Shown here in pieces: positions 1 through 35,349 of a stretch of 39,037 nt of DNA (position 1 is its first letter; each line of letters opens with the position of its first letter). The stretch lies in the UHGV virus genome UHGV-2079062; one strand, 5' to 3'. Made by a program: the position numbers and the translations under genes. Source of the stretch: a virus. The notes beneath the pieces are model-generated. The model saw nothing but the letters and a program-made list of their open reading frames with translations. It did not search any database and was not told the DNA's origin.

Positions 1-120
1 TGAAAAACAGGCTGAGCACGGTGTACGTCAGCCCGGAAAAGTGCATATCCAGCAGAACATCATGAAAATAATGGGTACTGTAAGTAAGCGTGCAGCAAGA
101 ACCGTATTGACGGGGATGTG

Positions 121-1659
121 TTATTCAGTCGGCAGTGCTACGCGCCAGGGGAGCAGTTCGCCGACCCGGTTTATCGGCCAGTCGGCTATGACGTCAAGGA
201 CATAGCGGAGGTAGCTTTCTGGCTCCACTCCGTTCAGTTTGCACGTCCCGATCAGGCTGTACAGCAGCGCTCCCCGCTCTCCTCCATGATCCGAACCGAA
301 GAACAGGTAGTTTTTGCGGCCCAGACTGACCATCCGCAACGCATTTTCAGCGATGTTATTGTCCGCCTCAGCCCAGCCATCATCTGCATAGTACGTCAGC
401 GCCGGCCACTGGTTCAGGGCGTATGCGAACGCTTTCGCCAGTTCTGAGTGTCGCGACAGGGTTTTCATCTTTTCACGCAGCCAGCTTTCCAGGGATTTCA
501 GCAGCGGTTTCGTTTTCAACTGACGTTCGGCAAGGCGCTGCTCCGCCGTCATTCCCCTTATCTCTGCCTCGATGGCGTACAGTTCGCCGATCCGTTTCAG
601 CGCTTCCTCCGTCAGGGCTGACGGGGTGCGAACGTGCACATCGTGGATTTTACGGCGGGCGTGAGCCCAACAGGCGGCTTCCGTTATCCGGCCATCCCGG
701 TACAGCTCGTTGAACCCGGCGTATGCATCCGCCTGCAGTACACCACTGAACCCCGCAAGATGGGTCTGCGGATGGATGCCTTTTCTGTCCGGGCTGTAAG
801 CGAACCACACCGCCGGCGCCAGCGTTGACCCGGCGTTACGGTCGTCACGAACGTAGGTCCATAACCGCCCGGTCTTCGTTTTCTTATTGCCTGGCAACAG
901 CACCGGGACAGGCGTGTCATCAGCATGGAGCTTACCGTCAGTCAGCACATAGTCCTGAAGCGCTTCTTCCAGCGGTGACAGTAGCCGGCAGCATGCATCC
1001 ACCCAGCCCGACAGCAGTGAACGACTCAGCTCCACGCCCTGGCGGCCGTACATTTCAGACTGGCGGTACAGCGGGGTGTGCTCTGCATACTTTGAGATCA
1101 GCACGCGGGCCAGCAGCCCCGGTCCTGCGATACCCCGCTCGATGGGCCGTGAAGGCGCGGGGGCCTGCACGATGGCATCGCACTGAGTACAGGCATGCTT
1201 TTCACGTACAGTCCGGATAACCCGGAAGGCGCTGCGCATCAGCTCCAGCTGTTCGGCGGCATCCTCACCCAGATAGCTCAGCGAGCCTCCACATTCCGGG
1301 CAGCATGACGCTGCCGGCAGCAGCCGTTTTTCATCGCGGGGGAGTGATTCGGGGAACGGTTTGCGGGTGCGGGTTTGACGCAGCGGGCGCTGCACGGCCG
1401 GGTCGTCAACCCGACCGGTAAGGGTATCACTTTCTTTCTGAAGTGCCTTCAGGTCAGCTTCCATCTGTGCGATACGACGGGAGACTTTTTCCGAGCGGCT
1501 GCCGAAGTTCATCCGGCGCAGCTTATCCAGCTGTGCCTGCAGATGGTCTATTTCGCGTTCACGCTCGTTCAGCTTTTCCTGCAGGGCACGGTTCAGCGCC
1601 TCCTGTTCGGCAAGGAGACGTTTCAGTGCATTGATATCGTCAGGAAGTGAGCTGCTCAT
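121..1659 (-). CDS. IS66-family transposase (TnpC/Orf3)
   Basis: 512-aa ORF with N-terminal coiled-coil/leucine-zipper region, CxxC...CxxC zinc motif and conserved IS66 transposase core, recognised from translation. Confidence 0.9.
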
Positions 1660-1707
1660 ACCGGGTATATTACCAGGCTCATTCAGCGTCGACCAGGATA
1701 AAGAGGC

Positions 1708-2055
1708 TTACAACATAGTCAGGGACGTAAGCAGTCTTTTAGGCTGCCGCCAGTCGATACCTTCCAGCAGCATCGCCAGCTGTGCCGGTGTGAGGAACAC
1801 TTTGCCATCCCGGGCTGACGGCCAGGCGAAGCGGCCGCGCTCCAGCCGTTTGGTCAGCAGACACAGTCCATCGCCGGTAGACCAGAGGAGCTTTACCTGA
1901 CTGCCATTACGCCCACGGAAGATAAAAACGTGACCTGACATCGGATCGTCTTTCAGCGTCGTCTGCACCTTTGCCGCCAGGCCGTTGAAGCCGTTTCTCA
2001 TATCGGTGATGCCAGCGACCAGCCAGATCTTTGTCCCTGATGGTAATGGGATCAA
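1708..2055 (-). CDS. IS66-family accessory protein TnpB (Orf2)
   Basis: 115-aa ORF immediately upstream of the transposase, overlapping tnpA stop by 4 nt; sequence typical of IS66 Orf2. Confidence 0.85.
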   Translation of the reverse strand: MIPLPSGTKIWLVAGITDMRNGFNGLAAKVQTTLKDDPMSGHVFIFRGRNGSQVKLLWSTGDGLCLLTKRLERGRFAWPSARDGKVFLTPAQLAMLLEGIDWRQPKRLLTSLTML

Positions 2056-2724: not shown

Positions 2725-3138
2725 TTAACTGACCGAATCTGGCTGAATAGGCAGTGACTGTGTCCAGTCACCAGCCCTGATATATGCACGTAATGATTTA
2801 CGGTACTCAGTCCACTCTGTAAGTGCCGACTTCACTGCGTTCTCAGTTGTGTCAGTGTAGTCAGCATCCTGGATCTGATCGTTCAACAAATCGATTTGAG
2901 TTGTTGCGCGAGCATACTCAGAGTTTGATATTGCCATATTTTCCGCGGCTAATTCGGCAACTGATTTTTCAATAACTGGCGCCGTGAAATTAGTACCGTC
3001 ATATGTCCAGTTTATTCCTGCGGCAATGCCAGTAATATTAATGACGGTGTAATCCGGAAATAATTTTTTTGCATCGTTATCTGAATTACAGACAACCGTA
3101 TTTACGACGACATTATTTTTAATTAATGCGTAATTCAT
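2725..3138 (-). CDS. phage tail fiber assembly protein (Tfa)
   Basis: 137-aa ORF immediately downstream of the tail fiber gene with ATGA start/stop overlap; N-terminal [11 protein letters not shown] motif typical of Tfa chaperones. Confidence 0.75.
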   Translation of the reverse strand: MNYALIKNNVVVNTVVCNSDNDAKKLFPDYTVINITGIAAGINWTYDGTNFTAPVIEKSVAELAAENMAISNSEYARATTQIDLLNDQIQDADYTDTTENAVKSALTEWTEYRKSLRAYIRAGDWTQSLPIQPDSVS

Positions 3139-4052
3139 TATGCAAACTCCTCAATCACGCAGATCCCAGGCGCTCCTGTTCCACCGGCTTTTAGCACTCC
3201 TGAAAAAGCGGTGTCATAAGCAGCACCTCCGCCAGCACCATATGCTTTGGCTGCAACACCATTAGCAGAACCAGCACGACCACCTCCCCCCCAGAACGAA
3301 GCCGCACCATTACCAAATGAGTAATAACTTCCCTGCTGACCGTCACTACCATAGCCACCATGGATATTGATTAGCCCGCCAGTAGCTGTTCCAGCTGCAC
3401 CACCAGAACCAACTGACGGAGTGTTTACGCCGGATCCACTACCACCGCGACCGGCTGACATTCCATTAAATGTTGATGTCCCACCTGGATTATCAGCTGT
3501 TCCACCTGCTCCGATAACGACAGAAAAATCACTGATATCTTCAAGGTCAAAAATACCGATGCAGGTTGCGGCAGAGCCACCTCCACCTCCAAACGCCGTC
3601 TGAGAAAATGATGTGGCGATGACAGAACTACCACCGCCACCTCCCCCGGTAAGAATTACCTTAATTTTCCGGGTACCCGGTGTTGGGGTGTAAGTACCAG
3701 ATGAGGTAATCACTTGAGTATTAAGCAAGCGGCCTACTACACCGGAATCATCCACCAAACCAAGGTTTTCGAGAGCCGTTTGCACAGTGCCATCCGATTT
3801 GATATCGCCAAACGGATTCTTGCGGCTTAACAGCAGCGCACGAAGCGCGGTAAGCAGCTGGTCGTGCCGCGCCTTCTCCAGACTGGCACCGGATGCCTCC
3901 ACCACGCTGCAGAGTTCTTCCTGCAACATGTCAAAGTAGTCATCATCCAGATCGGTGGCTGGCGTGCCGGTCTGGGGGTTACCACGGGTAAAACCGTTCT
4001 TACCCGCGCCGAACTTATCCTTCTGCGCGGTTTTTGTGTCTATACGATGCAT
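3138..4052 (-). CDS. phage tail fiber protein, glycine-rich
   Basis: 304-aa ORF with conserved N-terminal tail-fiber region followed by long Gly-rich tracts; position between baseplate genes and tfa. Confidence 0.7.
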
Positions 4053-6649: not shown

Positions 6650-7728
6650 CAGAACGGGTCCTCCTGTACTCTGGCTTTTTTCTTTTTCCGCGCGCCGGGG
6701 GCTTCGGGTTCAGGCAGATAAGCATCAGGTGGGCCGACACGGATTTCCGTCAGAGTGCCGTTCTGGTCCTGAGTAAACGTGACTTCCGAAACAAGCAGTT
6801 CGGTATTGTCGAAACCACAGACCGGATCAAAGACAATCACCCGCTGGTTGGGCTGCCACAGCGTACCATTACCCTGTCGCCAGCCCTGCACCACATAGGT
6901 GGTTTCATCCGTCCGCGCCGCCCGTTGTCGGGCTTCAAAGTCCGCACGGGCAATACAGCCTGCCCCCGTAGCCTGCCCTGTCTGCCTGATATACATCGGA
7001 CGGTAACGGGCAATAAATGCGTCCTCTGTGCGGGCCCGCAGCGCGGTGGTGGTGGCCTCACCGAAATCATCGTCGTTTCCGGCACGCTGCCCCGCCACCT
7101 GGTAAACAGAAAACCGCTCCCGGATACTCTTCTCCGTATCGCAGGAAAGGATGTTTTCCCCGAGTACCAGCGCAGTATGTGCCCGCGTTGAGCCAATACC
7201 GCCAATCACCAGCCTGCCGTGCGGGTCGTCGTAAGCCAGTGCCTGCTGCTGACCGAGTATTTTGTTGATTACCTCAATCACCGTTTCACCGTAATCAGGC
7301 TGGACATCAGGAATAACACCCGACGGCGCACCGTTGTTCACCACCTCAATGCCGAAAGGCGCAGCAAGCGCCTGCGCAATCTGTACCAGCGATCGTCCGT
7401 TAAACTGTGTCGGTTCGGCTGCACAGTCAATCAGGTCAGCGGTCAGACTGCGTCCGGCAATACCGGTGCTGACCGAACGGGCATCGTAACGAACGGGCGT
7501 CGCCTCCACCCAGCCGGTGATCACCAGCTCATCACCAATCAGCACCTCCACTTTTGAACCGTTTTTAATGCGCGGCTGAAGCGTGGTAATACCCTCATCT
7601 CCCGGCCACTGGCGGGTGATCTCCACACTGAAATCCCGCGCCAGCCGTTCAATACCGGCACCGATGCGCACCGATGTCCAGCCATTCCACTCCCGGCCAT
7701 TTACCCGTAGCGTGACATTGTCGTTCAT
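6649..7728 (-). CDS. baseplate hub protein (Mu gp44 / P-like)
   Basis: 359-aa ORF downstream of the DNA circulation gene; synteny with Mu P. Confidence 0.6.
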   Translation of the reverse strand: MNDNVTLRVNGREWNGWTSVRIGAGIERLARDFSVEITRQWPGDEGITTLQPRIKNGSKVEVLIGDELVITGWVEATPVRYDARSVSTGIAGRSLTADLIDCAAEPTQFNGRSLVQIAQALAAPFGIEVVNNGAPSGVIPDVQPDYGETVIEVINKILGQQQALAYDDPHGRLVIGGIGSTRAHTALVLGENILSCDTEKSIRERFSVYQVAGQRAGNDDDFGEATTTALRARTEDAFIARYRPMYIRQTGQATGAGCIARADFEARQRAARTDETTYVVQGWRQGNGTLWQPNQRVIVFDPVCGFDNTELLVSEVTFTQDQNGTLTEIRVGPPDAYLPEPEAPGARKKKKARVQEDPF

Positions 7729-9053
7729 TGCACTGGCACCTTCAGAGGGATCACCGGCACAAAGCCGGGATGCGTAATGGCATTACGCCGGATAATGTCC
7801 GCATCACGCGCCGCGTTATCAAACCAGGTCGCCGCCAGCACCAGCGCGGGTAAAACCTCATCCGGCGTGCGCTGAATGATCCGTGCAGACTGTTCAAGGC
7901 GCGTGTTGATATCCGCATTCAGATCTGCTTTCACCCGGCGCAGCGCCAGAAACAGCGCATCACTGGTTGTACGGGACAACTCCTTATCAATTGCCGTATT
8001 CAGTGTGTCGCGAATGTCAGTCAGTTCTTCCCACGTCGGCAGGTCAACCGTGCTTTTCACCGCCGGAGCATTGTTCAGTGCCGGATGCGTGACGGAAGGC
8101 CAGTCAGTGCTCTGCGCGGGTGTTGTTGCCTGCCCCACTGCGGCATTCTGCATCACCGCGGAAGTTGTTGGCGCAGGCAATCGGGTGACGGCATACGCCG
8201 CTTCGCTGATTGCGGTCGTACGAAGGATGCTGGCAACCACGTTACGCTGCTGCGTCGCCGTGGCGGTGGTTTTACTGTCCGTTTTCCAGACGCCGCGCGG
8301 TTGCAGATCGCTGCCGAGGCTGACACCGGAAAGCGTTTTGATCATGGTGACCAGGTCGCTGGCGTTACCATAAAGGCGTTTCCCGGTACGCCACATTTTC
8401 TGCACCTGCTCAACGAAATTTTTGCCTGACGATGGTGGCGGCAGAAGTACCGAGATATCCCCCTGCAACAGCCTGGCGGCATCCGATACGGCAGAATCCA
8501 CCACTTTCATCGCATCAGAAACATACCCAAGCATTGTGCTGGCATTACCGATAACGTCGTTCTGCACAAAATCCGCCACGCCATCGATACTGAAACCGCT
8601 GAAGCTGTCACTGATGCAGTCATCCAGTGCAGAACAGGATGACATCAGCGTCTGCGCCGTCGCCACGCCTGATGTGGGGTAAGAGAGATCTCCCGCTTCG
8701 ACAAACTTCAGGTCAAAGCGGACAATACGCCCTTCACTCTTCGATGTGCTGACCCGAACTTCCCCGTCAACACAGACTTTCAGCTCACCGTATGTCGGGT
8801 GGACAAGCGTGCCGGGACCGGGTTTATTCAGCGCGTCAATCAGGCGATCGCGCTGGTCAAAGCAGTCATCTCCCACCACATAAGCCGTGATGGACGGGCG
8901 GAAAGTGACTTTTCCCAGATCTTCGGTATAGGGTTTGTCGCGGTTCGGATATTCGTGTGTTTCCACACGACGGCCGGTTCCCGCACTTTCTTCTTCAACC
9001 TTAAACGGCACACCTCGAAATGACGCATCCTGAAGCCTGTCTTTCCACGTCAT
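7725..9053 (-). CDS. DNA circulation protein (Mu gp43 / N-like)
   Basis: About 442-aa ORF; ATG at 9053 preceded by GGAG; the ORF track extends to a GTG at 9059. Position after tape measure region matches Mu N. Confidence 0.65.
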   Translation of the reverse strand: MTWKDRLQDASFRGVPFKVEEESAGTGRRVETHEYPNRDKPYTEDLGKVTFRPSITAYVVGDDCFDQRDRLIDALNKPGPGTLVHPTYGELKVCVDGEVRVSTSKSEGRIVRFDLKFVEAGDLSYPTSGVATAQTLMSSCSALDDCISDSFSGFSIDGVADFVQNDVIGNASTMLGYVSDAMKVVDSAVSDAARLLQGDISVLLPPPSSGKNFVEQVQKMWRTGKRLYGNASDLVTMIKTLSGVSLGSDLQPRGVWKTDSKTTATATQQRNVVASILRTTAISEAAYAVTRLPAPTTSAVMQNAAVGQATTPAQSTDWPSVTHPALNNAPAVKSTVDLPTWEELTDIRDTLNTAIDKELSRTTSDALFLALRRVKADLNADINTRLEQSARIIQRTPDEVLPALVLAATWFDNAARDADIIRRNAITHPGFVPVIPLKVPVQ

Positions 9054-9063
9054 ATACACTCCG

Positions 9064-9094
9064 AAAATAAAAAAGCCACCTATTAGAAGGTGGC
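9064..9094 (-). terminator. rho-independent terminator downstream of the tail-module moron
   Basis: Minus-strand stem GCCACC/GGTGGC (9075..9080 / 9089..9094) followed by a T-rich run (9064..9074). Confidence 0.55.
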
Positions 9095-9114
9095 CTTGTA
9101 ATGAATTTTATTAA

Positions 9115-9645
9115 TTAGCGAGTCAGAAACAACGAATCTTTATACTTTTGCTGTTGTTCATTTAAATACTTAGCTGTTTCATCGCTGGCAAATGGAAATA
9201 TTACCGTATTTTTAGGCATGGTAATTTCTTTTTTGTCCAGCGTCAGAGTAAACATAGGAACATACTGAGCAGAGTAACGCACCGCAGAAACGAGCTCTAG
9301 TTTAGACTCTTCAATAACACTTAAATTATCCAGGCTAACTTTCTCTTCATCTTTTTTCTTTGACGCATTTAAAGTTTTTATTACTTTATTTAATTTCTCC
9401 TGAAAATCCTCCTTAAAGTTTTCAGGATTGCCGTCGACAACAAGAATCTGTTCACCCTGATTATCTGGAAAAATAATCTTTGCACTTATCAATTTATTTT
9501 CTTTATAAACATCACCAAGTTTTATGGCTCCTCCAGATAACTGAATAATATGTTCATCTTTAAAGGAGATGTTGCCAGAGATTATGAGAGATGAAAAAAT
9601 AGCCGCTGCTCCAAGAATTACACTTGCTGTGATATAGCCTTTCAT
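9115..9645 (-). CDS. hypothetical secreted or membrane-anchored protein (moron inserted in tail module)
   Basis: 176-aa ORF in a markedly AT-rich segment; N-terminal hydrophobic signal/anchor (MKGYITASVILGAAAIFSSLIISG); lysine-rich; no counterpart in Mu-type tail synteny; flanked by its own promoter-like and terminator sequences. Confidence 0.6.
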   Translation of the reverse strand: MKGYITASVILGAAAIFSSLIISGNISFKDEHIIQLSGGAIKLGDVYKENKLISAKIIFPDNQGEQILVVDGNPENFKEDFQEKLNKVIKTLNASKKKDEEKVSLDNLSVIEESKLELVSAVRYSAQYVPMFTLTLDKKEITMPKNTVIFPFASDETAKYLNEQQQKYKDSLFLTR

Positions 9646-9680
9646 TTTTCGCCTATTAACATTTTTCTAAATGTGCATTA

Positions 9681-9708
9681 ATTCTATCACTCTATTTATG
9701 ACTTACAA
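9681..9708 (-). promoter_or_regulatory. candidate sigma70 promoter for the moron (TTGTAA-N16-TAGAAT)
   Basis: Minus-strand -35 TTGTAA (9708..9703) and -10 TAGAAT (9686..9681), about 35 nt upstream of the moron ATG; by eye only. Confidence 0.35.
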
Positions 9709-9736
9709 CCAGCAATACATGTGAGGGGAATCCTGG

Positions 9737-11569
9737 CTACCAAAATCGGGTATAGCCAACATCGTGATTTATATCAATGCCACTGGAGCGTGTTTCCGTA
9801 ACCCGCATACCTGGTGGCATATTTATAAATGATACCTTGATCTCACCATCAACTTTTGGCGCGGTAGCTTTATTAATCATGAAGGGATTCGAGCCTGTGG
9901 CATCGGAGGCGTTGTTTGCCTGAGCCGGATCCACCGCCGGATAAGGCGTGTATCCCCGTGCCGGTATTCCCGTCCCATAAGCATCATAAGCACCCGCGCC
10001 CCACTGCGCCGAGTTAATGGTATCGACCGTGTCACCGGAACTGTCGGTAAACCATTCAATAATCGGCTTCAGCTTATCCCACATATCCTGAAACCACTTA
10101 ACAACCGGTCCCCAGTTATTGATCACCATCCCCAGCGGCGACCAGGCAAAAACTTTCTTAAGGAGTTCCCAGCCAGCCTCAAAATAAGGACCAATGGTTT
10201 CCCAGAGCTTCTTGAAATAAGGTCCGACAACATCCCAGTTAGTGATAATTAATCCCGCAGCCAGGGCTATCGCCGTCGCAATCATGCCAATCGGCGTCAT
10301 CGACATGATCCTGCTGACAATGCTGATGGCACTGCCCACGCCCATCAATCCCAGTTTCAGAATCGCAAGACCGGCAGCAAGCCCGACGACGCCGCGAATA
10401 ACCCGGGGATTTTCATCCGCAAACTTCGTGAATTTCTCCCCCAACTCCCCCAGCCACTGCGTGATGTTCTTAGCGTCACCAGAAAATGCGCCGCCAATAG
10501 CCGCAAGGCCGTTAGTTGCGGTCCCCGTCATTGCCTCCCACAGGTTGGACAGCGTACCAAGCTGAGCCTGAACACGTTTATTCAGGCTGGCCTGTTTATT
10601 CATCTTCTGCTGGATCTGATCGTAGCCATCCTTTCCTTTATCGATTAGTGCATTGACCACCTGAAGGGTTTCGGCATCATCACCAAATATTGCCTTAAGT
10701 ACACCGGTTCGCTTAACGTCGGTCAGTTTTCGCAGCTTTGCCAGTTGCCTGAACATGTTATCAAGACCGCCAAAACTCCCTTTGCCATCAGTAAAATCGA
10801 GCTGTACCCCGAGTTTCTGGCGGGCCATGATTTTATTGACGTCCCTGATTTTCTTAACGCTTAATCCGGACTGGATAACTTTTCGCAGGGCATTACCTGC
10901 CGACTCCCCGTTCATCCCCATCTGATCCATCATGACACTGATGGGGGCAAGACTCTGTGCAGCCTGAAGACCGTCCTTATTCACCATCTTCAGAACAGAG
11001 CTGGTTTTAGTGAAGAATGACAGCATGTTGGTATCGTCCACGCCCAGATAAAACGCCTTCTGAATTGTGTCGAACAGCCCCATCATGTCTTCTGAGGCCG
11101 TTCCGGTAGCATCCTGCATCTTTGCGGCAAACTCAGCAGCCGCTTCCGGTGTTTTTTTCAGTTGTACCGCAAGATAAGCTGTCGCTTTACCCACACCACC
11201 AAGAATGTTTTCTGCCGGGATCCCCTGACGCACCAGCATCTGCATCATGTTCTGGAAATCAGCCGTTGTACCGGGTAGCTGGTTACCCAGGCCAATAGCC
11301 AGTTTATTGATGTCCTGAAAGCTCTTTCCAACCTCGCCGTTCGCATCCATCATGGCGACTTTCAGCCCGGTGGCGGCGTTTTCCTGATCAGCATAAGATT
11401 TCAGGGAAAGCGTCAGACCCGCTGCCAGTCCGCCACCAAGCGCCAGCCCACCCTGTGACGCTTCTTCCGCCTGGCGTTTAAATCCCCGGATTTTCTTTTG
11501 CATTTTCGACAGCGCGGGAGAAAGCCTGTCGACACCGGTGATCAACGCCTTAAGCTCAAATTCAGCCAT
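9737..11569 (-). CDS. phage tail tape measure protein
   Basis: 610-aa ORF with Ala/Gly-rich helical N-terminus and hydrophobic central segments; located after the tail assembly chaperone. Confidence 0.85.
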   Translation of the reverse strand: MAEFELKALITGVDRLSPALSKMQKKIRGFKRQAEEASQGGLALGGGLAAGLTLSLKSYADQENAATGLKVAMMDANGEVGKSFQDINKLAIGLGNQLPGTTADFQNMMQMLVRQGIPAENILGGVGKATAYLAVQLKKTPEAAAEFAAKMQDATGTASEDMMGLFDTIQKAFYLGVDDTNMLSFFTKTSSVLKMVNKDGLQAAQSLAPISVMMDQMGMNGESAGNALRKVIQSGLSVKKIRDVNKIMARQKLGVQLDFTDGKGSFGGLDNMFRQLAKLRKLTDVKRTGVLKAIFGDDAETLQVVNALIDKGKDGYDQIQQKMNKQASLNKRVQAQLGTLSNLWEAMTGTATNGLAAIGGAFSGDAKNITQWLGELGEKFTKFADENPRVIRGVVGLAAGLAILKLGLMGVGSAISIVSRIMSMTPIGMIATAIALAAGLIITNWDVVGPYFKKLWETIGPYFEAGWELLKKVFAWSPLGMVINNWGPVVKWFQDMWDKLKPIIEWFTDSSGDTVDTINSAQWGAGAYDAYGTGIPARGYTPYPAVDPAQANNASDATGSNPFMINKATAPKVDGEIKVSFINMPPGMRVTETRSSGIDINHDVGYTRFW

Positions 11570-21994: not shown

Positions 21995-22518
21995 ATGTAC
22001 TCCAATGAAGAAACCAGCGAAATAGCTGCCTTCATTCGTAGTAAACCTTTTTCATCAACGCAGTAATGGATTCTTTGAAGAGTCGCGATCAATACAACTC
22101 ACTAATGGAGAGACTTGTCTCACGCATGAGACAAATTTCCCGTTTGATTTAATGGACACTATAGAGGGACAGAATGCCTTCCTCACTCGAATCACATCAA
22201 TTAAGGAGGTTCAACATGTTTCATTCCACAAGTCATCAGGCTGTAATTATGGCAGCATCAGTTTGTGCCAAAGACCTTTTCCGCTTCACTTTGAGCCTGA
22301 TTCATTTCTACCTGACCGGCTCGCCTCTATCTTTTTAATCCCCGCTTTATCCAAATTGCATTGCCATAATGCCGACAACACACTGACATTCAAATCCAGA
22401 CTACCTCCAATAGTCTGACCGTACACCTATATAGTTTTAATTTTCATCAATCCATTTAACTATCGTTTAATTGTTGTCACATAGGATTCTGCTGTTTTTA
22501 ACAATACAGGATAATAAG

Positions 22519-22812
22519 ATGAAAAAAATGTTGTTTTCTGCCGCTCTGGCAATGCTTATTACAGGATGTGCTCAACAGACGTTTACTGTTGGAAACAAAC
22601 CGACAGCAGTAACACCAAAGGAAACCATCACCCATCATTTCTTCGTTTCGGGAATTGGACAGGAGAAAACTGTTGATGCAGCCAAAATTTGTGGCGGCGC
22701 AGAAAATGTTGTTAAAACAGAAACCCAGCAAACATTCGTAAATGGATTGCTCGGTTTTATTACTTTAGGCATTTATACTCCGCTGGAAGCGCGTGTGTAT
22801 TGCTCACAATAA
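22519..22812 (+). CDS. bor: Bor lipoprotein (serum-resistance protein)
   Basis: 97-aa ORF MKKMLFSAALAMLITGCAQQTF... with lipobox LITGC, near-identical to recalled lambda Bor; opposite strand just after Rz, as in lambda. Real start at ATG 22519 rather than track start 22471. Confidence 0.9.
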   Translation: MKKMLFSAALAMLITGCAQQTFTVGNKPTAVTPKETITHHFFVSGIGQEKTVDAAKICGGAENVVKTETQQTFVNGLLGFITLGIYTPLEARVYCSQ

Positions 22813-22843
22813 TTGCATGAGTTGCCCATCGATATGGGCAGCT

Positions 22844-23305
22844 CTATCTGCACTGCTCATTAATATACTTCTGGGTTCCTTCCAGTTGTTTTTGCATAGT
22901 GATCAGCCTCTCTCTGAGGGTGAAATAATCCCGTTCAGCGGTGTCTGCCAGTCGGGGGGAGGCTGCATTATCCACGCCGGAGGCGGTGGTGGCTTCACGC
23001 ACTGACTGACAGACTGCTTTGATGTGCAACCGACGACGACCAGCGGCAACATCATCACGCAGAGCATCATTTTCAGCTTTCGCATCAGCTAACTCCTTCG
23101 TGTATTTTGCATCGAGCGCAGCAACATCACGCTGACGCATCTGCATGTCAGTAATTGCCGCGTTCGCCAGCTTCAGTTCTCTGGCATTTTTGTCGCGCTG
23201 GGCTTTGTAGGTAATGGCGTTATCACGGTAATGATTAACAGCCCATGACAGGCCGACGATGATGCAGATAACCAGAGCGGAGATAATCGCGGTTACTCTG
23301 TTCAT
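22844..23305 (-). CDS. Rz: i-spanin Rz
   Basis: About 153-aa ORF with N-terminal TM helix and coiled-coil periplasmic domain, matching lambda Rz; start taken at MNRVTAII. Confidence 0.85.
22903..23085 (-). CDS. Rz1: o-spanin Rz1, embedded in Rz in the +1 frame
   Basis: 60-aa ORF with lipobox VVGC and proline-rich region ([13 protein letters not shown]), matching lambda Rz1. Confidence 0.85.
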
Positions 23306-23799: not shown

Positions 23800-24014
23800 T
23801 ATTCACCTCTCGCAGCCTTGCGCTTATCTTCTTTAATCTTGAAATAAAGGTTTGTCAGGTACGTCAGCAGGCCAAATACCAGGCTACCCAGCACACCTAT
23901 TGCTGCCCACTGTGAGGGCGTGACTTTATCGAGCAGCTGTAAAAACCAGTAACCGGCACTACCTGCTGAGGTGCCATAGGCGACACCCGTTGTTAACTTA
24001 TCCATGGATTTCAT
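23799..24014 (-). CDS. S: pinholin (phage 21 S-type), dual-start MKSM
   Basis: 71-aa ORF with two TM segments and charged C-terminus; Met1/Met4 dual-start motif. Confidence 0.9.
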
Positions 24015-24575
24015 AACCCCACCTCGCAGACAAAGCGGGTGTAAATTGAGGGAATACTACGAAACGTAACAGACTCGGAGTCAGTGAATAACTCAGGTAT
24101 TGGGTTATCAGCTAATATCGAGACTCAAAAAATGGAAAAACCCGCTCGACGGCGGGTTTAAGCTGTGTGACGAAGTAACCACTCTTAACAGCATAACCAA
24201 TTTTTTACGTACGTAAACCACTAAATGATATTTGCGAGAATGCTACCGAGTATTGAAAACACCACTACAAATACATAAGCAAATCCCAACAAATAATTTC
24301 CAGTGTTATTTTTAGCCGGTTTAAATTGAACCTTCAAATTATAGAGCACTTATAAATAACAGCCGTTAATATAAATTGGCTAATAGATTTATTTTTATTC
24401 AGCAAAGAGCCATGAATAGGATTCGATAGAAAAAAGTTCAGATAAAAATAGAGATCTACTTCACAAATCAAACGAGAAACCAAAACTTACATCTTGAAAT
24501 AATCACATTGATTAGATGAATATTTATCGCGCAGTGACATCATTTTTTAATAATAGTTCAAAAAAAGGGCTCACG

Positions 24576-25673
24576 ATGAAAAAATTAACAGTGGCAATTT
24601 CTGCTGTAGCTGCATCAGTACTGATGGCGATGTCTGCTCAGGCAGCTGAAATTTATAATAAAGACAGTAACAAGCTGGATCTGTACGGGAAAGTTAATGC
24701 TAAGCACTACTTCTCCTCTAATGATGCAGATGATGGTGATACTACTTATGCCCGTCTTGGCTTCAAAGGTGAAACCCAAATCAACGATCAACTGACTGGT
24801 TTCGGTCAGTGGGAATATGAATTCAAAGGCAACCGCGCTGAATCTCAAGGTTCCTCCAAAGATAAAACCCGTCTTGCCTTCGCTGGCCTGAAATTCGGTG
24901 ACTACGGCTCCATCGATTACGGCCGTAACTACGGTGTAGCATACGACATCGGTGCGTGGACTGACGTCCTGCCAGAATTCGGTGGTGACACTTGGACTCA
25001 AACCGACGTGTTCATGACTCAACGTGCAACTGGTGTTGCAACCTATCGTAACAACGACTTCTTTGGTCTGGTTGATGGTCTGAACTTTGCTGCTCAGTAC
25101 CAAGGCAAAAACGATCGTAGCGATTTCGATAACTACACTGAAGGTAACGGTGATGGCTTCGGTTTCTCTGCTACCTATGAATACGAAGGATTCGGTATCG
25201 GTGCAACTTATGCGAAATCTGATCGTACCGACACTCAAGTTAATGCAGGGAAAGTTCTTCCTGAAGTATTTGCTTCCGGTAAAAATGCAGAAGTTTGGGC
25301 CGCAGGTCTGAAATATGACGCTAACAACATTTACCTGGCCACTACCTATTCTGAAACCCAGAATATGACTGTATTTGCTGATCACTTCGTTGCTAATAAA
25401 GCCCAAAACTTCGAAGCTGTTGCACAATATCAGTTCGATTTCGGTCTGCGTCCGTCCGTTGCTTACCTGCAATCTAAAGGTAAGGATCTTGGAGTATGGG
25501 GCGATCAGGACTTAGTCAAATATGTTGATGTAGGTGCAACCTATTACTTCAACAAAAATATGTCTACTTTCGTTGATTACAAAATCAACCTGCTTGACAA
25601 AAATGACTTCACTAAAGCACTCGGTGTAAGCACTGATGACATCGTTGCTGTAGGTCTGGTTTACCAGTTCTAA
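24576..25673 (+). CDS. nmpC: outer membrane porin, OmpC/OmpF/PhoE family (prophage NmpC/Lc-type), apparently intact
   Basis: 365-aa ORF from [23 protein letters not shown] signal peptide to C-terminal ...VYQF; located between Q and the lysis genes on the opposite strand as in DLP12/PA-2. Track ORF 24516 start is an upstream in-frame extension. Confidence 0.9.
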
Positions 25674-25810
25674 TCTGATTACGAAAAAGATATGTTGCGG
25701 GAGGCGTTGCCTCCCCAACATATAAGTGGCTCCCTCAAGCCACTTCCTTTAGAAGCACAACCTTGCTTCTAACTATATAAACCTTCTGTTATATATTACC
25801 CTTTATTTTT

Positions 25811-25835
25811 GGGGGCGTCTCAACGCCCCATTTTT
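25811..25835 (+). terminator. rho-independent terminator downstream of porin gene
   Basis: GGGGGCG-tctcaa-CGCCCC stem-loop followed by TTTTT. Confidence 0.6.
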
Positions 25836-25862
25836 AATAACTTTTAGTAAATAATTGGCATA

Positions 25863-26246
25863 TTAATTAGAGTTATTAACAACGATATCCATCTCTAACC
25901 GGATATCTAATGCCATTAACATCCCTTCAATTATGCCCTCAGCCTTCTGTAACCTTTTCCCGATATAACCATCAGAGCAGCAATGCTTACCTGCCAGTGA
26001 CATGAATGTCATACCGACTACATAATAATCTACTAATAAATCGTGCAAATCGCTGTTGTTCTTTTTCAGACGGGCCATGCACCCGCAAATAATCATCGCG
26101 TCATCGTCACAACATTGCGGGCGAGATTTTACTTTTGAAGTAATTAATCCCTTAAAACCGGCGGCAATGGACGACCAGGTCACATCTTCATGATTATTAG
26201 CCGCCCACGCTCCCCAACGCTCAAGAACCATCTGAATATCACGCAT
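25863..26246 (-). CDS. late-gene antiterminator Q (DLP12 QuuD-like)
   Basis: 127-aa ORF with Cys-rich zinc motif; ATG at 26246 preceded by GGAG; positioned upstream of late/lysis region after rusA-ylcG. Confidence 0.8.
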
Positions 26247-26331
26247 CAACTTACTCCACAAAAATCAGACCAGAACGCCAATTACAAGCAAAAATCAACA
26301 AAACAGTATTAGTTGATTGTTATCTCTGACT

Positions 26332-26469
26332 TCATACTCCTGCTCCTGTCAGGGTTTTGGCGTAATTCTTCAGTATTCGGTAATCGGTCAAAACAGAACT
26401 GGGGAAACGATATAAGCGCAGGCGCATCCAGCGGTGGCGAAGAAGTTCTGCCATATTAAACTCAAACAT
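26332..26469 (-). CDS. ylcG: small protein YlcG-like
   Basis: 45-aa ORF ([45 protein letters not shown]) translated by hand; start overlaps rusA stop (TGATG). Confidence 0.55.
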   Translation of the reverse strand: MFEFNMAELLRHRWMRLRLYRFPSSVLTDYRILKNYAKTLTGAGV

Positions 26470-26831
26470 CATTCATTCCCCATTTCGGTGATGGTCAGTT
26501 CCAGCCTCCCACCTTTGGTAACAGGCATCTTCACAACGCGGTAATCAACGACCTGAGCATCATCCAGCCAGAAACCTGCTTTAGTGAGTGCGTCAAAAGC
26601 GGCTTTTTGCAGATTATCCAGGTCACGGCGACGGCGATCCGGCATGTGGCACTCAATGCGGATTTTCACAGGGATAGCCAGGCCGATATCCAGCATTGCG
26701 TTTTTAATGATTCTGGCGACGTTATCGCGGTATGCCTGCCCCTCTGCGCTGACGTGCGTGCGCCCGCGATTATGGCGGTAATAGCGATTATTGCTCGGAG
26801 GCCAGGGTAATGTGATGCTGTAGGTATTCAC
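26469..26831 (-). CDS. rusA: crossover junction endodeoxyribonuclease RusA (Holliday junction resolvase)
   Basis: 120-aa [21 protein letters not shown]... matching recalled RusA. Confidence 0.9.
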
Positions 26832-26850
26832 GCCTTAATAATCCCCTCTT

Positions 26851-27045
26851 TCAGCCACATAACCTGTGTTTTCGCCATACCTTCCAGCGCGCATTCTTTT
26901 GCATATGCAGCATCGACTTGCTTGGCATGCCCTTTACCGGCAATCTTCTGTATGCGCTAAACCTAGATAGAATCCACTCTGTGCTCATTGAAGCCCGCTC
27001 TATGCTTCCTTTCTGGTATTGAAGGGATTGAGATGGGCTAAGCAT
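26851..27045 (-). pseudogene. ninF-like 5' start fused out of frame to a YbcO/DUF1364-like 3' remnant
   Basis: ORF begins [18 protein letters not shown] (NinF-like) then diverges; a different frame over 26832..26955 encodes ...[29 protein letters not shown] resembling the YbcO C-terminus, preceded by in-frame stops. Confidence 0.4.
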
Positions 27046-27385
27046 TATTGGCCTCCTGCATCAGGAGAAAGACAATCATGGCGGCGCGGAGAGGTCTGGT
27101 ATCAAATATTGGGCTTACGCCTTTTGCATCCACACACCATTCAGTTAACTGGTCTAAGATAGAAATCCTGTATTTCTCAATAATCGGCCATGAAGCGCTC
27201 GGATCATTGCAGTAGTCAGGCAAATGATTTAATGGCTCAAAAGTTGTATCAGCATTTCCGTAATACCATTTGTTGGTGTTATTCCCTGATGTTTCCGGTT
27301 TACTTGCCCAAAGGCCTTTAAAAATTATGTCTCCTACCATTCTGTTAATTTCAAAATCACTTAACTGTGAATAATCCATTGTCAT
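27038..27385 (-). CDS. hypothetical nin-region protein (115 aa)
   Basis: ORF with GAGGAA ribosome-binding site; ATG overlaps stop of upstream ninE-like gene (ATGA); no family recognised. Confidence 0.5.
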
Positions 27386-32063: not shown

Positions 32064-32963
32064 ATGTCCCAAGAATTATCTTTAACCTTTACCGAAAACA
32101 TATATTATTCAACTAAAGAACCTGTAAGCATCAAAGATGTGATTACCTCCCTTCAAGGGTGGGAGGCCATCGCAAAACAATCAGAAGGTGTTTTGCAGGA
32201 ACTGACAGGGGCTAATATCCTTGATATATCGGTGCATGTTGCGCGATTAGAAGCAGGAAGCCTTTATGAAGATATTGTTATTAAACTCCTCTTTGGTAGC
32301 CAAGAAGAAATGGACAAGTTTCTTGCTGGCGCTCATGCAAAGATCGGAAATGGGAAAATGAGAAACGCTCTCGTTGGTGCTGTTGTTATTGGTCTGGTTG
32401 GATATGGCTTAGTTCTAGCAACTAAGGCTATGGCTCCAAGCAACACCTCCCACTTTGAAGCAAATAACAATACAATCATCAATATTGGTGCCGGTGAGGC
32501 TAATATTTCACCTGACCGTCTTCAAGCAATCATAGAAAGCACGGTAACCAATAAGAAGACTCTTGCCAAAAGTTCCATTAAGACGCTTGCCCCAGCTAGG
32601 GCAGACGAAGGATCTACGATGGTCATAGGTACAGGGGGTGGTACAGTGACCATTCCCGCTGAAACCATTAAAAAAGCCCCAACTGAAGTTGTCTTCACAC
32701 CAGAGTCATATACTCAGGATCATTTTGATGTTGATGTTGAAATCCGTGCATTAGACCTCGACAATCCAGAGAAAGGTTGGGCTGCTGTTATCCCTGGATT
32801 AATAGATCGAAGAGTAAATATGGTTCTTGGCCCCAACGTAAACCCATCAGATTTTGCAGGTAAATTTGCTGTACGTGCTGATATAACAATAACGTACCAG
32901 CTCAAATCATCAGATAAAAAATACCAACCGAAAGAAGTCTTTATAAAAGAAATAATCAAATAA
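32064..32963 (+). CDS. hypothetical 299-aa single-pass membrane protein in the cI-N (rex) slot; candidate lysogen-expressed exclusion/defence gene
   Basis: AT-rich ORF with GAGGG ribosome-binding site; central hydrophobic helix (MRNALVGAVVIGLVGYGLVLATKAMA); followed by a terminator; no resemblance to recalled RexA/RexB. Confidence 0.6.
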   Translation: MSQELSLTFTENIYYSTKEPVSIKDVITSLQGWEAIAKQSEGVLQELTGANILDISVHVARLEAGSLYEDIVIKLLFGSQEEMDKFLAGAHAKIGNGKMRNALVGAVVIGLVGYGLVLATKAMAPSNTSHFEANNNTIINIGAGEANISPDRLQAIIESTVTNKKTLAKSSIKTLAPARADEGSTMVIGTGGGTVTIPAETIKKAPTEVVFTPESYTQDHFDVDVEIRALDLDNPEKGWAAVIPGLIDRRVNMVLGPNVNPSDFAGKFAVRADITITYQLKSSDKKYQPKEVFIKEIIK

Positions 32964-32969
32964 TTATAC

Positions 32970-32995
32970 CCGGCCTCAGCGCCGGTTTTTCTTTT
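32970..32995 (+). terminator. rho-independent terminator after the 299-aa gene
   Basis: CCGGC-ctcagc-GCCGG stem followed by TTTTTCTTTT. Confidence 0.5.
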
Positions 32996-33253
32996 CCTCA
33001 CGATCGTCTACCTTATTTAACATCCGCACATGTGCTAACCCACGAACTAACACGCCAGCAAACAATTCTTTCTCTCCTACTGACCAATCTTCAATCTTTA
33101 CAAAAATAAACTCCTTTACATATCAAAAACATATCCCATTAAGTTAATGAACCACAAACAATTCGTACTTATAGTTCTTGATAATATCGAACTATTGGTT
33201 CATTATCATCACCATCAGCAGGACGCTGGCAGCCAAACGGAACAGATTGGCAG

Positions 33254-33287
33254 GCTCTTTAACTTCGATGATGCGCTGACAAAGCGC
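33254..33287 (+). promoter_or_regulatory. nutL site: boxA-like GCTCTTTAA and boxB hairpin GCGCTGACAAAGCGC
   Basis: boxA-like at 33254..33262 and 5-bp stem/GACAA loop hairpin at 33273..33287 (P22-type boxB), about 120 nt upstream of N. Confidence 0.6.
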
Positions 33288-33405
33288 GAACAGATACCAA
33301 ACGAGATGGGTTTGGGGTGATGTGAATTGCAGCAGTAACGACAGCAACCAGAAGATCAGCATCTGGCGCATCACCACCAAAGCCATTTCACATGAGGAAA
33401 ACATC

Positions 33406-34312: not shown

Positions 34313-34455
34313 CGGCGTTTCTCTTTTGCTCTCTGTAGGGGTGAATAGAGTTTATCCGATTTCTCGCTGTAGGGGTACATGAGAACCACCGAGCCTGATG
34401 TGGTTAAAAGACAGGCACAATCTTTACTACCGCAATCCACTATTTAAGGTGATAT

Positions 34456-34542
34456 ATGGAAGAAGAATTTGAAGAGTTCGAAGAGCATCCTCAGGATGTG
34501 ATGGAACAATACCAGGACTATCCGTATGACTACGACTATTGA
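34456..34542 (+). CDS. small acidic protein (lambda orf28-like)
   Basis: 28-aa ORF MEEEFEEFEEHPQDVMEQYQDYPYDYDY with AAGGTG ribosome-binding site; overlaps ral start. Confidence 0.45.
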   Translation: MEEEFEEFEEHPQDVMEQYQDYPYDYDY

Positions 34543-34726
34543 TAAAAATCAATGGTGTGGACAATTCAAGCGATGTAATGGATGCAAGCTGCAATCGGAA
34601 TGCATGGTTAAGCCTGAAGAAATGTTTCCTGTAATGGAAGATGGGAAATATGTCGATAAATGGGCAATACGAACGACGGCAATGATTGCCAGAGAACTTG
34701 ACAAACAGAACAACAAAGCTGCCTGA
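34526..34726 (+). CDS. ral: restriction alleviation protein Ral
   Basis: 66-aa ORF MTTTIDKNQWCGQFKRCNGCKLQSEC... with Cys cluster; matches recalled lambda Ral. Confidence 0.8.
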   Translation: MTTTIDKNQWCGQFKRCNGCKLQSECMVKPEEMFPVMEDGKYVDKWAIRTTAMIARELDKQNNKAA

Positions 34727-34862
34727 TAGTGGCCTTTATTTTTGGCATAAATAACAGAATAAACACTGCACTGTGTATTCATTCCAACGAGTGAATACAC
34801 GGAGCAATGTCGCTCGTAACTAAACAGGAGCCGACTTGTTCTGATTATTGGAAATCTTCTTT

Positions 34863-34889
34863 GCCCTCCAATGTGAGGGCGATTTTTTA
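34863..34889 (+). terminator. rho-independent terminator (tL-like) between ral and ea10
   Basis: GCCCTC-caatgt-GAGGGC stem followed by GATTTTTT. Confidence 0.55.
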
Positions 34890-34908
34890 TCTGTGAGGAT
34901 ATGAACAG

Positions 34909-35277: not shown

Positions 35278-35349
35278 GTGCGGTTTTACCGCATACCAAT
35301 AACGCTTCACTCGAGGCGTTTTTCGTTATGTATAAATAAGGAGCACACC

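What the first reader, a model, noticed from the sequence alone, without database searches (positions are those of the whole stretch)
9064..9708. AT-rich promoter-gene-terminator moron inside the tail operon encoding a secreted or membrane-anchored protein
Seen in sequence: a 176-aa ORF (9115..9645) with an N-terminal signal/anchor sequence lies between the tape measure and DNA circulation genes, which are adjacent in Mu-type tail modules. It is much more AT-rich than its neighbours and is bracketed by a sigma70-like promoter (9681..9708) and a rho-independent terminator (9064..9094). Established knowledge: morons of this architecture in tail regions often encode envelope proteins conferring superinfection exclusion or virulence (phi80 Cor, lambda Lom/Bor). 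Inference: this is lysogenic-conversion or exclusion cargo, not a structural gene.
Basis: partly seen in the sequence, partly recalled or inferred. Interest (0 to 1): 0.7.

Follow-up and report, generated by a model that had tools for sequence, protein, structure and literature searches.

The report
Exported cargo gene in phage tail operon
An SfV-like E. coli prophage carries an optional, AT-rich gene just after its tape-measure gene. The gene encodes an uncharacterised protein that probably faces the periplasm, and it is one of at least four alternative cargo genes at this spot, so it is a plausible but untested phage-exclusion factor.

Summary
A 176-aa ORF (9115..9645, minus strand) with about 34% G+C sits between the tape-measure gene and the DNA-circulation gene of an SfV/SfI/SfII-like prophage whose flanks are 52-56% G+C. 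A sigma-70-like site lies upstream and a strong hairpin plus T-run lies downstream.

The gene is optional cargo, not a structural gene. SfV, SfI, SfII and about two thirds of related E. coli prophages have the two tail genes about 60 bp apart. Other relatives carry one of three unrelated small genes at the same spot, one of which matches a PHROG family annotated as Sie-like.

The protein belongs to an unannotated family (phrog_5485; 77 clusters at 50% identity). It has an N-terminal hydrophobic helix and a confidently modelled alpha/beta domain (pLDDT 90.5) with no relative in the PDB. Relatives at 30-58% identity occupy the same slot in other prophages, including Leclercia and Edwardsiella. 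A structurally similar protein in a lytic Pseudomonas phage is lipoprotein-anchored, which argues that the domain works in the periplasm.

Two caveats apply. The hairpin is also present in empty slots, so it belongs to the slot and not to the insert. The promoter match is no better than chance and is not clearly conserved.

Superinfection exclusion at the envelope is the best guess but is unproven. This is a new member of a known kind.

The parts
9737..11569 (-). Tail tape-measure gene; it forms the upstream boundary of the cargo slot.
   Evidence: PF10145 at E 1e-26. PGAP annotates it as 'phage tail tape measure protein' in the identical E. coli B27 locus.
9646..9736 (-). AT-rich 91-nt spacer between the tape-measure stop codon and the cargo start codon. 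This is where the insert begins relative to empty relatives.
   Evidence: G+C 0.341. In the junction alignment, homology with empty and differently occupied slots ends just after the tape-measure stop codon.
9681..9708 (-). Sigma-70-like promoter candidate, TTGTAA-16-TAGAAT with an extended -10 TG, whose -10 element ends 35 nt before the ATG.
   Evidence: Consensus scan, 9 of 12 matches. The number of such sites equals the shuffle expectation. An extended -10-like motif occurs in only 3 of 6 orthologous upstream regions. Function is unproven.
9115..9645 (-). Cargo gene encoding a 176-aa protein (WP_000679479, phrog_5485) made of an N-terminal hydrophobic helix and an alpha/beta domain.
   Evidence: The family has 77 representatives of 50%-identity clusters. 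The AlphaFold model has pLDDT 90.5.
9577..9639 (-). Codons 3-23, the predicted transmembrane signal-anchor or signal-peptide helix.
   Evidence: Kyte-Doolittle 19-residue windows score 1.3-2.1. AlphaFold models a helix at 3-23. A hydrophobic N-terminus is present in all 38 aligned family members.
9063..9097 (-). GC-rich hairpin (10-bp stem, 9097..9072) plus T-run, ending just before the GGAG ribosome-binding site of the DNA-circulation gene. It is a constant feature of the slot, not of the insert.
   Evidence: Terminator scan. Folding energy -15.6 kcal/mol, z = -5.8. Equivalent hairpins occur in the empty slot and with every cargo on the tail-gene strand.
7725..9053 (-). DNA-circulation (Mu gp43/N-like) gene; it forms the downstream boundary of the slot.
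   Evidence: PF07157 at E 4e-34.

Best explanation
**What it is.** The segment 9063..9736 is one of several interchangeable cargo cassettes. They occupy a fixed slot in the Mu-type tail module of SfV-like prophages, between the tape-measure stop codon and a constant hairpin/T-run that precedes the DNA-circulation gene.

**The product.** The 176-aa protein is not part of the virion. It is inserted into or exported across the inner membrane by its N-terminal hydrophobic helix, so that its roughly 150-residue alpha/beta domain faces the periplasm.

**Most likely role (inferred).** It is probably an envelope-level superinfection-exclusion or anti-phage factor. It would interfere with an incoming tail tip or tape-measure protein as that crosses the periplasm and inner membrane. 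HK97 gp15 excludes at this stage, and T4 Imm does so by binding the tape measure.

**Expression (inferred).** In a lysogen it would be transcribed from an AT-rich promoter in the 91-nt spacer, and the downstream hairpin would stop that transcript before the baseplate genes. During lytic growth the Q-antiterminated late transcript would read through the hairpin, so the gene would also be made late.

**Shown:** optional cargo, a variable slot, a conserved family under constraint, the export signal and the hairpin.

**Inferred:** periplasmic topology, expression in lysogens and the exclusion function.
For: **Optional cargo in a variable slot.**
- 1093 of 5426 complete E. coli genomes carry the flanks, but only about 179 carry this insert.
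- Most of the rest have the two tail genes about 60 bp apart, as do SfV, SfI and SfII.
- Three other cargos use the same slot. A 164-aa protein with a signal-peptide-like N-terminus is in 85 genomes and also in the isolated phage SKA5. A bPH_1 protein is in 28 genomes. A TM-anchored PF12869 OB-fold protein, which matches phrog_8545 'superinfection exclusion Sie-like', is in 72 genomes.

**A real, constrained protein.**
- The family has 77 cluster representatives, nearly all 170-180 aa, with a conserved G-x-V-x-L-G-x-V-Y-x-E motif.
- The AlphaFold model has pLDDT 90.5.

**Periplasmic location.**
- Every aligned member has a hydrophobic N-terminus.
- The only significant structural match is a lipobox-bearing protein of the lytic Pseudomonas phage ventosus (Foldseek E 2e-6). 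A similar fold therefore also appears with a lipid anchor, which places it in the periplasm.

**Accessory or arms-race behaviour.**
- Low G+C is also seen in the same-slot homologues examined (0.335-0.42 against 0.47-0.57 in their flanks).
- The cargo diverges faster than its structural neighbours: 53% identity against 68-86% for all but one mosaic tape-measure gene.

**Other contexts fit genes expressed in lysogens or in conflict systems.**
- One homologue lies directly after a Peptidase_S24 repressor-like gene, beside conflict-system genes (L016).
- Another lies directly before a TM-anchored PF12869 protein (L014).

**Read-through and precedent.**
- A Q antiterminator gene is present at 26943..27320, which can explain how late transcription passes the hairpin.
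- HK97 gp15 is a tail-operon moron next to the tape-measure gene and acts as an inner-membrane exclusion protein (PMC3594210).
- T4 Imm binds the tape-measure protein (bioRxiv 10.64898/2026.03.06.709160).
Against: - No experiment or transcript data are available.
- The promoter match is at chance level. No rule-based promoter was found in the spacers upstream of the homologues in L006, L017 and L020. In L017 the spacer is only 34 nt.
- The hairpin is not specific to the cargo.
- There is no sequence similarity to any PHROG annotated as exclusion, to any PADLOC model, or to Pfam or NCBIfam.
- In every tail-slot case the gene is co-oriented with the late operon. It has stayed in tail modules down to 28-30% identity, and its divergence tracks the DNA-circulation gene (r = 0.90). 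This could instead mean a late-expressed role in the phage's own cycle.
- Whether the N-terminal helix is cleaved or remains as an anchor is undecided.
Confidence: 0.45

Rival explanations
1. It is a late-expressed accessory for the phage's own lytic cycle. It would be made from the Q-dependent late transcript together with the tail genes. Possible roles are to protect infected cells or newly released virions (for example by preventing wasteful re-injection into lysing cells, as T5 Llp does for its receptor) or to modulate the envelope at assembly or lysis. On this reading it has no function in the lysogen.
For: - The gene has the same orientation as the tail genes in every tail-slot homologue.
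- The upstream spacer can be as short as 34 nt, with no recognisable promoter.
- The family recurs in tail or baseplate clusters down to 28% identity (L021).
- Cargo divergence tracks the downstream DNA-circulation gene (r = 0.90).
- A structurally similar protein occurs in a strictly lytic phage.
Against: - The gene is absent from most close relatives, including the viable phages SfV, SfI and SfII. Any such role is therefore dispensable.
- The markedly foreign composition and the unrelated alternative cargos at the same slot point to interchangeable accessory functions.
- Some homologues lie outside tail modules, next to a repressor-like gene or a resolvase.
Confidence: 0.25
2. It is a lysogenic-conversion factor that acts on the bacterium's interaction with an animal host or its environment (adhesion, serum resistance, stress tolerance), in the manner of lambda Lom or Bor, and not on phages.
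For: - The moron-like layout and the exported product.
- It is present in pathogenic lineages such as ETEC H10407 and APEC strains.
Against: - The protein has no lipobox and no outer-membrane beta-barrel. The model is an inner-membrane helix plus a soluble domain.
- Carriers include E. coli from flies, soil, plants and wastewater, and homologues occur in Leclercia, Lelliottia, Edwardsiella and a range of metagenomic samples.
- Cargo at the same slot and neighbours of homologues elsewhere point to phage conflict.
Confidence: 0.1
3. It is a decaying or neutral passenger: foreign AT-rich DNA, possibly silenced by H-NS, that happens to sit at a recombination-permissive junction and has no selected function in E. 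coli.
For: - Very low G+C.
- Occasional truncated or frameshifted copies (P0004, P0005, P0020; the CX04 record).
- Lost or absent in most relatives.
Against: - Length and motifs are conserved across 77 clusters down to about 21% identity, and the fold is confidently predicted.
- The copies in 179 of the 181 matching E. coli records are at least 99% identical, nearly all over the full length.
- The gene has been retained in the same slot in several other prophages, including Leclercia and Edwardsiella.
Confidence: 0.05

Closest known systems
HK97 gp15 moron, the first described moron (Juhala et al. 1999; Cumby et al. 2012; reviewed in PMC3594210)
   Same: - A single small gene inserted in a tail operon directly beside the tape-measure gene.
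- Base composition differs from the neighbours.
- The product has an N-terminal membrane segment.
- The gene is absent from close relatives.
   Different: - There is no sequence similarity: PHROG hits are only to families of unknown function.
- gp15 lies upstream of the tape-measure gene, whereas this gene lies downstream.
- This protein carries a roughly 150-residue folded domain beyond its N-terminal helix, a feature the gp15 review (PMC3594210) does not describe.
- Expression from the prophage and exclusion are shown for gp15 and untested here.
T4 Imm and other injection-blocking exclusion proteins (P22 SieA, T4 Sp)
   Same: The predicted location is the inner membrane or periplasm. The proposed mode of action is to block genome translocation. 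Imm has been shown to bind the tape-measure protein (bioRxiv 10.64898/2026.03.06.709160).
   Different: The sequence is unrelated, and so (from general knowledge) is the size. The topology here is a single N-terminal helix plus a periplasmic alpha/beta domain. No binding partner is known.
phi80/N15/HK022 Cor, T5 Llp, lambda Lom and Bor
   Same: These are tail-region or moron-encoded envelope proteins that give exclusion or host-interaction phenotypes.
   Different: From general knowledge, those are outer-membrane proteins or lipoproteins. This protein has no cysteine, so it cannot have a lipobox, and the model is not a beta-barrel. Only the structurally similar protein of Pseudomonas phage ventosus has a lipobox.
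TM-anchored PF12869 (tRNA_anti-like OB-fold) prophage proteins, phrog_8545 'superinfection exclusion Sie-like'
   Same: - They occupy the identical slot in sister prophages (L004, L005).
- They share the architecture of an N-terminal TM segment plus a small globular domain.
- A member of this family lies immediately next to a homologue of the cargo in L014.
   Different: The fold and sequence are unrelated. In the slot this gene is encoded on the opposite strand.
Variable accessory or defence hotspots of temperate phages (for example the P2/P4 hotspots)
   Same: A fixed position between conserved genes is filled by alternative, unrelated, low-GC genes in otherwise near-identical phages.
   Different: Here the position is inside the tail operon of SfV-like phages. 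It holds single small genes, mostly for exported proteins, and none matches PADLOC defence models. I found no description of this slot in the searched literature.

Membership tests
Moron (sense of Juhala et al. 1999; PMC3594210) | Extra DNA relative to closely related phages with conserved gene order | tested here: met
   SfV, SfI and SfII and most related E. coli prophages lack about 620 bp at this position; their tail genes are about 60 bp apart.
Moron (sense of Juhala et al. 1999; PMC3594210) | Base composition different from the surrounding genes | tested here: met
   G+C 0.343 and GC3 0.299, against 0.52-0.56 and 0.57-0.61 in the flanks. This is one of the two lowest-GC stretches in the window.
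Moron (sense of Juhala et al. 1999; PMC3594210) | Own promoter | tested here: inconclusive
   A 9-of-12 consensus match with an extended -10 lies at 9708..9681, but such matches occur at chance frequency. No clear conservation was found in the orthologous cassettes.
Moron (sense of Juhala et al. 1999; PMC3594210) | Own terminator | tested here: inconclusive
   A strong hairpin plus T-run follows the gene (z = -5.8). An equivalent element is present in the empty slot and with unrelated cargos, so it belongs to the slot.
Moron (sense of Juhala et al. 1999; PMC3594210) | Expressed from the repressed prophage | not testable with these tools
   No transcript data were available. No paper mentions the protein accession.
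Known superinfection-exclusion protein families (Imm, Sp, SieA, gp15, Cor, Llp, Ltp) | Sequence or profile similarity to a characterised member | tested here: not met
   PHROGs gives only phrog_5485 and phrog_34391, both of unknown function. There were no hits in PADLOC, Pfam, NCBIfam or PDB sequences.
Known superinfection-exclusion protein families (Imm, Sp, SieA, gp15, Cor, Llp, Ltp) | Envelope location | tested here: inconclusive
   This is a prediction only, based on the hydrophobic N-terminal helix, the hydrophobic N-termini across the family and the lipobox on a structurally similar phage protein.
Known superinfection-exclusion protein families (Imm, Sp, SieA, gp15, Cor, Llp, Ltp) | Blocks infection after adsorption when expressed | not testable with these tools
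   This requires plaque, adsorption and injection assays.
Outer-membrane or lipoprotein conversion factors (Cor, Bor, Lom) | Lipobox cysteine or outer-membrane beta-barrel | tested here: not met
   The protein contains no cysteine. The model is a TM helix plus an alpha/beta sandwich.
Virion structural component of Mu/SfV-type tails | Conserved presence across phages that share the tail module | tested here: not met
   Absent from SfV, SfI and SfII and from about two thirds of related E. coli prophages, and replaced by unrelated genes in others.
phrog_5485 (unannotated phage protein family) | Full-length profile match | tested here: met
   E 3.8e-108, residues 1-176 matched to profile positions 1-176.

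The most novel reading that the evidence does not exclude
The protein would found a previously unrecognised family of periplasm-facing phage proteins. These are anchored by a TM helix or a lipid and have a fold without a PDB relative. They would block genome delivery by contractile-tailed phages, for example by binding the tape-measure protein or tail tip. In addition, the junction between the tape-measure and DNA-circulation genes of SfV/Mu-type tails would be a dedicated hotspot for such envelope-acting exclusion genes.
Probability: 0.35. Interest if true: 0.6.

Novelty: new member of a known kind. Interest (0 to 1): 0.42.

Why it matters
- Tail-operon morons that protect lysogens are a known concept, but few have an assigned mechanism.
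- This work identifies a concrete, testable candidate family. It has about 77 clusters, a confident structural model and no annotation.
- It also identifies a well-defined cargo slot with at least four alternative occupants in roughly a third of the SfV-like prophages of E. coli. The carriers include pathogens such as ETEC H10407.
- If the cargos are exclusion factors, they would affect phage host range and phage-therapy outcomes in E. coli and Shigella. They could also help probe how contractile-tail phages cross the periplasm and inner membrane.
- If they are not, the finding is an ordinary prophage accessory gene.

Tried and rejected
- **AFDB50 Foldseek.** This library was not available.
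- **The search for related loci with the diverse alignment.** This failed because no stretch was conserved enough. With the close alignment, the species-representative genomes yielded only one locus, from Edwardsiella.
- **Second indexed protein search.** The search with the deep alignment returned mostly the same close homologues.
- **Phage records.** tblastn of the protein against 50,697 phage records found no match.
- **Family and RNA libraries.** PADLOC, Pfam, NCBIfam and PDB sequence searches were negative. Rfam gave only sub-threshold leader-like hits caused by the hairpin.
- **Literature.** Searches for the accession, for a described hotspot in SfV-like phages and for H10407 transcript maps gave nothing usable.
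- **Structural-gene reading.** Rejected because the gene is absent from close relatives.
- **Lipoprotein or outer-membrane reading.** Rejected because there is no cysteine and no beta-barrel.
- **Tight co-evolution with the tape measure.** Considered and set aside. Cargo identity tracks the DNA-circulation gene (r = 0.90) and not the tape-measure gene (r = 0.49). This rests on only 5 loci.

Full report
**1. What is in the sequence.**

The window is a lambdoid-regulated prophage with a Mu-type tail. It belongs to the SfV/SfI/SfII group, with 97.5-97.8% nucleotide identity over the tail genes. It is integrated next to tRNA-Thr and proA, and it is identical to a locus in E. coli B27. All late genes are on the minus strand.

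The ORF 9115..9645 (176 aa) lies between the tape-measure gene (9737..11569, PF10145) and the DNA-circulation gene (7725..9053, PF07157). No competing ORF of at least 50 aa overlaps it on either strand.

Its G+C is 0.343 (GC3 0.299), against 0.516 and 0.563 for the neighbouring genes. With the lysis region, it is one of the two lowest-GC stretches of the 39-kb window.

Upstream there is a TTGTAA-16-TAGAAT site with an extended -10 TG at 9708..9681. Downstream there is a 10-bp GC-rich hairpin plus T-run at 9097..9063. The hairpin folds far better than shuffled sequence (-15.6 kcal/mol, z = -5.8). The promoter-like site occurs at the frequency expected by chance in this AT-rich DNA (3 found, 3.0 expected).

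**2. It is optional cargo in a variable slot.**

- 1093 of 5426 complete E. coli genomes carry the flanking tail sequences. Only about 179 carry this insert, and 179 of the 181 matching records are at least 99% identical.
- In an evenly spaced sample of the hits, about half show the two tail genes about 60 bp apart (781 bp matched instead of 1401). SfV, SfI and SfII show the same arrangement.
- Other relatives carry something else at exactly this position:

| Cargo | Genomes | Notes |
|---|---|---|
| 164-aa protein with a signal-peptide-like N-terminus | 85 | also in the isolated phage SKA5 |
| 125-aa bacterial PH-domain protein (bPH_1) | 28 | no hydrophobic segment |
| TM-anchored PF12869 OB-fold protein | 72 | opposite strand; matches phrog_8545 'superinfection exclusion Sie-like' |

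- All of these cargos are low in G+C (0.31-0.39).
The gene is not a conserved structural component.

**3. The terminator belongs to the slot, not to the insert.**

The junction alignment and folding show a GC-rich hairpin followed by a T-run immediately before the GGAG ribosome-binding site of the DNA-circulation gene. It is present in the empty slot, with the PH-domain cargo, with the 164-aa cargo, and with every homologue of this gene.

- Empty slot (L001): CCCACTCCGGTGGG + TTTTTT, -18.7 kcal/mol for the whole spacer.
- The hairpin sequences do not follow cargo type.

The anatomy is therefore: tape-measure stop codon, then insertion point, then constant hairpin, then DNA-circulation gene.

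A Q-family antiterminator gene at 26943..27320 offers the standard lambdoid explanation for how late transcription passes this hairpin. That explanation rests on established knowledge and was not tested here.

**4. The protein.**

No Pfam, NCBIfam, PADLOC or PDB-sequence match exists. PHROGs places it in phrog_5485, of unknown function.

An exhaustive profile search found 77 representatives of 50%-identity clusters. Nearly all are 170-180 aa. All 38 that were aligned have a hydrophobic N-terminus and a conserved G-x-V-x-L-G-x-V-Y-x-E motif just after it.

With this deeper alignment AlphaFold gives pLDDT 90.5 and pTM 0.75. The model has a helix at residues 3-23. Four strands (32-72) follow, then a helix (74-93), two long strands (114-143) and a final helix (149-171).

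The only significant match among predicted viral structures is a 144-aa protein of the lytic Pseudomonas phage ventosus (Foldseek E 2e-6, probability 1.0).
- I located it as CNR37_00111.
- It has a classical lipobox (LLTGC), followed by a sequence that resembles the family motif.
- Profile-level sequence support is weak (hhalign probability 34%).

A similar fold attached to either a hydrophobic helix or a lipid anchor argues that the domain works in the periplasm.

Whether the helix in this protein is cleaved after G24 or stays as an anchor cannot be decided. Position -1 is G in 24 of 38 members but D, E, K or F in 8. There is no cysteine, so this protein is not a lipoprotein.

**5. Where relatives sit.**

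| Locus | Identity to the window protein | Context |
|---|---|---|
| L006-L010 (Leclercia prophages and metagenomic contigs) | 53-58% | same slot |
| L024 (Edwardsiella anguillarum) | 41% | same slot |
| L020 | 38% | same slot |
| L017 | 30% | same slot |
| L021 | 28% | a different myovirus tail/baseplate cluster |
| L019 | 24% | close to another tape-measure gene, on the opposite strand |
| L014 | 22% | after a resolvase gene and directly before a TM-anchored PF12869 protein |
| L016 | 27% | directly after a Peptidase_S24 repressor-like gene, beside HNH/CTD11/MC6-7 conflict-system genes |

The same-slot homologues are each low in G+C and followed by a hairpin plus T-run.

The cargo is more diverged than all but one of its structural neighbours: 53% identity against 68-86%, the exception being the mosaic tape-measure gene of L006 at 36%. 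Across five loci its pairwise identity follows the DNA-circulation gene (r = 0.90) and not the tape-measure gene (r = 0.49). The tape-measure gene is itself mosaic.

The gene is therefore an old, fast-evolving resident of this slot that has been lost or replaced many times. It is not a recent one-off insertion.

**6. Mechanism.**

The best-supported reading is a periplasm-facing accessory protein that acts at the envelope, most likely as a superinfection-exclusion factor. The arguments are circumstantial:
- The gene is optional and sits in a swap-prone slot.
- Two of the three alternative cargos also have hydrophobic or signal-peptide-like N-termini.
- One alternative cargo matches a PHROG family annotated as Sie-like.
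- The gene diverges quickly.
- Some homologues neighbour repressor-like or conflict-system genes.
- There is precedent. HK97 gp15 is a tail-operon moron next to the tape-measure gene and acts as an inner-membrane exclusion protein (PMC3594210). T4 Imm binds the tape-measure protein (bioRxiv 10.64898/2026.03.06.709160).

Against this reading:
- Expression in the lysogen is unproven.
- Only 3 of 6 orthologous upstream regions hold an extended -10-like motif (5 hits against 1.6 expected).
- One spacer is only 34 nt long.
- In every tail-slot case the gene is co-oriented with the late operon.

A late-expressed, dispensable role in the phage's own cycle is therefore a serious rival. A virulence-type conversion role is less likely, given the architecture and the environmental spread of carriers. 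A functionless passenger is unlikely, given the conservation of the family.

**7. Novelty and score.**

The concept of a tail-operon moron that encodes an envelope protein is established. The specific family is uncharacterised. I found no description of the cargo slot between the tape-measure and DNA-circulation genes of SfV-like phages in the searched literature.

I rate it a new member of a known kind. It is a good candidate for a simple experiment, but as it stands it would not surprise a specialist. Interest: 0.42.

Noticed in passing
window 9063-9097; L001 1855-1914; L002, L003, L006, L010, L017, L020 and L024 at the equivalent position: A GC-rich hairpin plus T-run sits directly before the ribosome-binding site of the DNA-circulation gene in every SfV-like tail module examined, including those with an empty slot. 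The stem sequences differ (CCCAC/GTGGG, CCCGCC/GGCGGG, GGCCACC/GGTGGC) but the element is always present. It may be a built-in intra-operon terminator or attenuator, or an RNA-stability element of the late operon.
   Followed up: partly
L002 1945-2439, L003 1918-2295, L004 1965-2411, L005 1883-2269 (same slot in other E. coli prophages): There are three alternative cargos at the same slot. One is a 164-aa protein with a signal-peptide-like N-terminus (phrog_8976, 85 genomes, also in phage SKA5). One is a bPH_1 protein (28 genomes). One is a TM-anchored PF12869 OB-fold protein encoded on the opposite strand (phrog_8545 'Sie-like', 72 genomes).
   Followed up: partly
L014 2491-3864: A 22%-identical homologue of the cargo lies immediately upstream of a TM-anchored PF12869 OB-fold protein and after a resolvase gene. 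Two protein types that are alternatives in the E. coli slot are therefore neighbours in this contig.
   Followed up: no
L016 184-5953: A 27%-identical homologue follows a Peptidase_S24 repressor-like gene. After it come a protein with several hydrophobic segments and genes with HNH_2/CTD11, MC6/MC7 and DUF2326 domains, which together look like a conflict or defence island.
   Followed up: no
window vs L006, L010, L017 and L020 (tape-measure, cargo and DNA-circulation genes): The tape-measure genes are strongly mosaic (24-77% identity), whereas the cargo and the DNA-circulation gene co-diverge (r = 0.90). This implies a recurrent recombination breakpoint between the tape-measure gene and the cargo.
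   Followed up: partly
MG018930 51995-52429 (L028 1995-2429), Pseudomonas phage ventosus: A 144-aa lipobox protein of a lytic 97-kb phage is the only significant structural match to the cargo protein. It shares a motif-like stretch (TIIHTRSAVVNVGEV). Sequence-level support is weak (hhalign probability 34%).
   Followed up: partly
window 23951-24900: This is a second low-GC island (0.324) that covers the endolysin and holin genes and small hypothetical genes. Weaker dips occur at 22051-22900, 25401-26150, 32651-33350 and 34451-35350.
   Followed up: no
window 26020-26868: A DUF6602 gene sits between the Q antiterminator and the holin genes. This is the classical lambdoid cargo position, where stx lies in Stx phages.
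   Followed up: no
window 1-1826 and 2739-3316: At the left end, a LEM-3-like GIY-YIG gene and the end of a DNA cytosine methyltransferase gene lie beyond a pinE invertase gene. The tail-fibre assembly gene is annotated as frameshifted, so the prophage may be defective.
   Followed up: no
NZ_CP081716.1 (L026), 37,667-bp circular record of E. coli CX04: A whole SfV-like phage genome is deposited as a 'plasmid'. Its copy of the cargo is 97.9% identical but shortened to 104 aa, and several tail genes are frameshifted. This is either an excised phage or a low-quality assembly.
   Followed up: no
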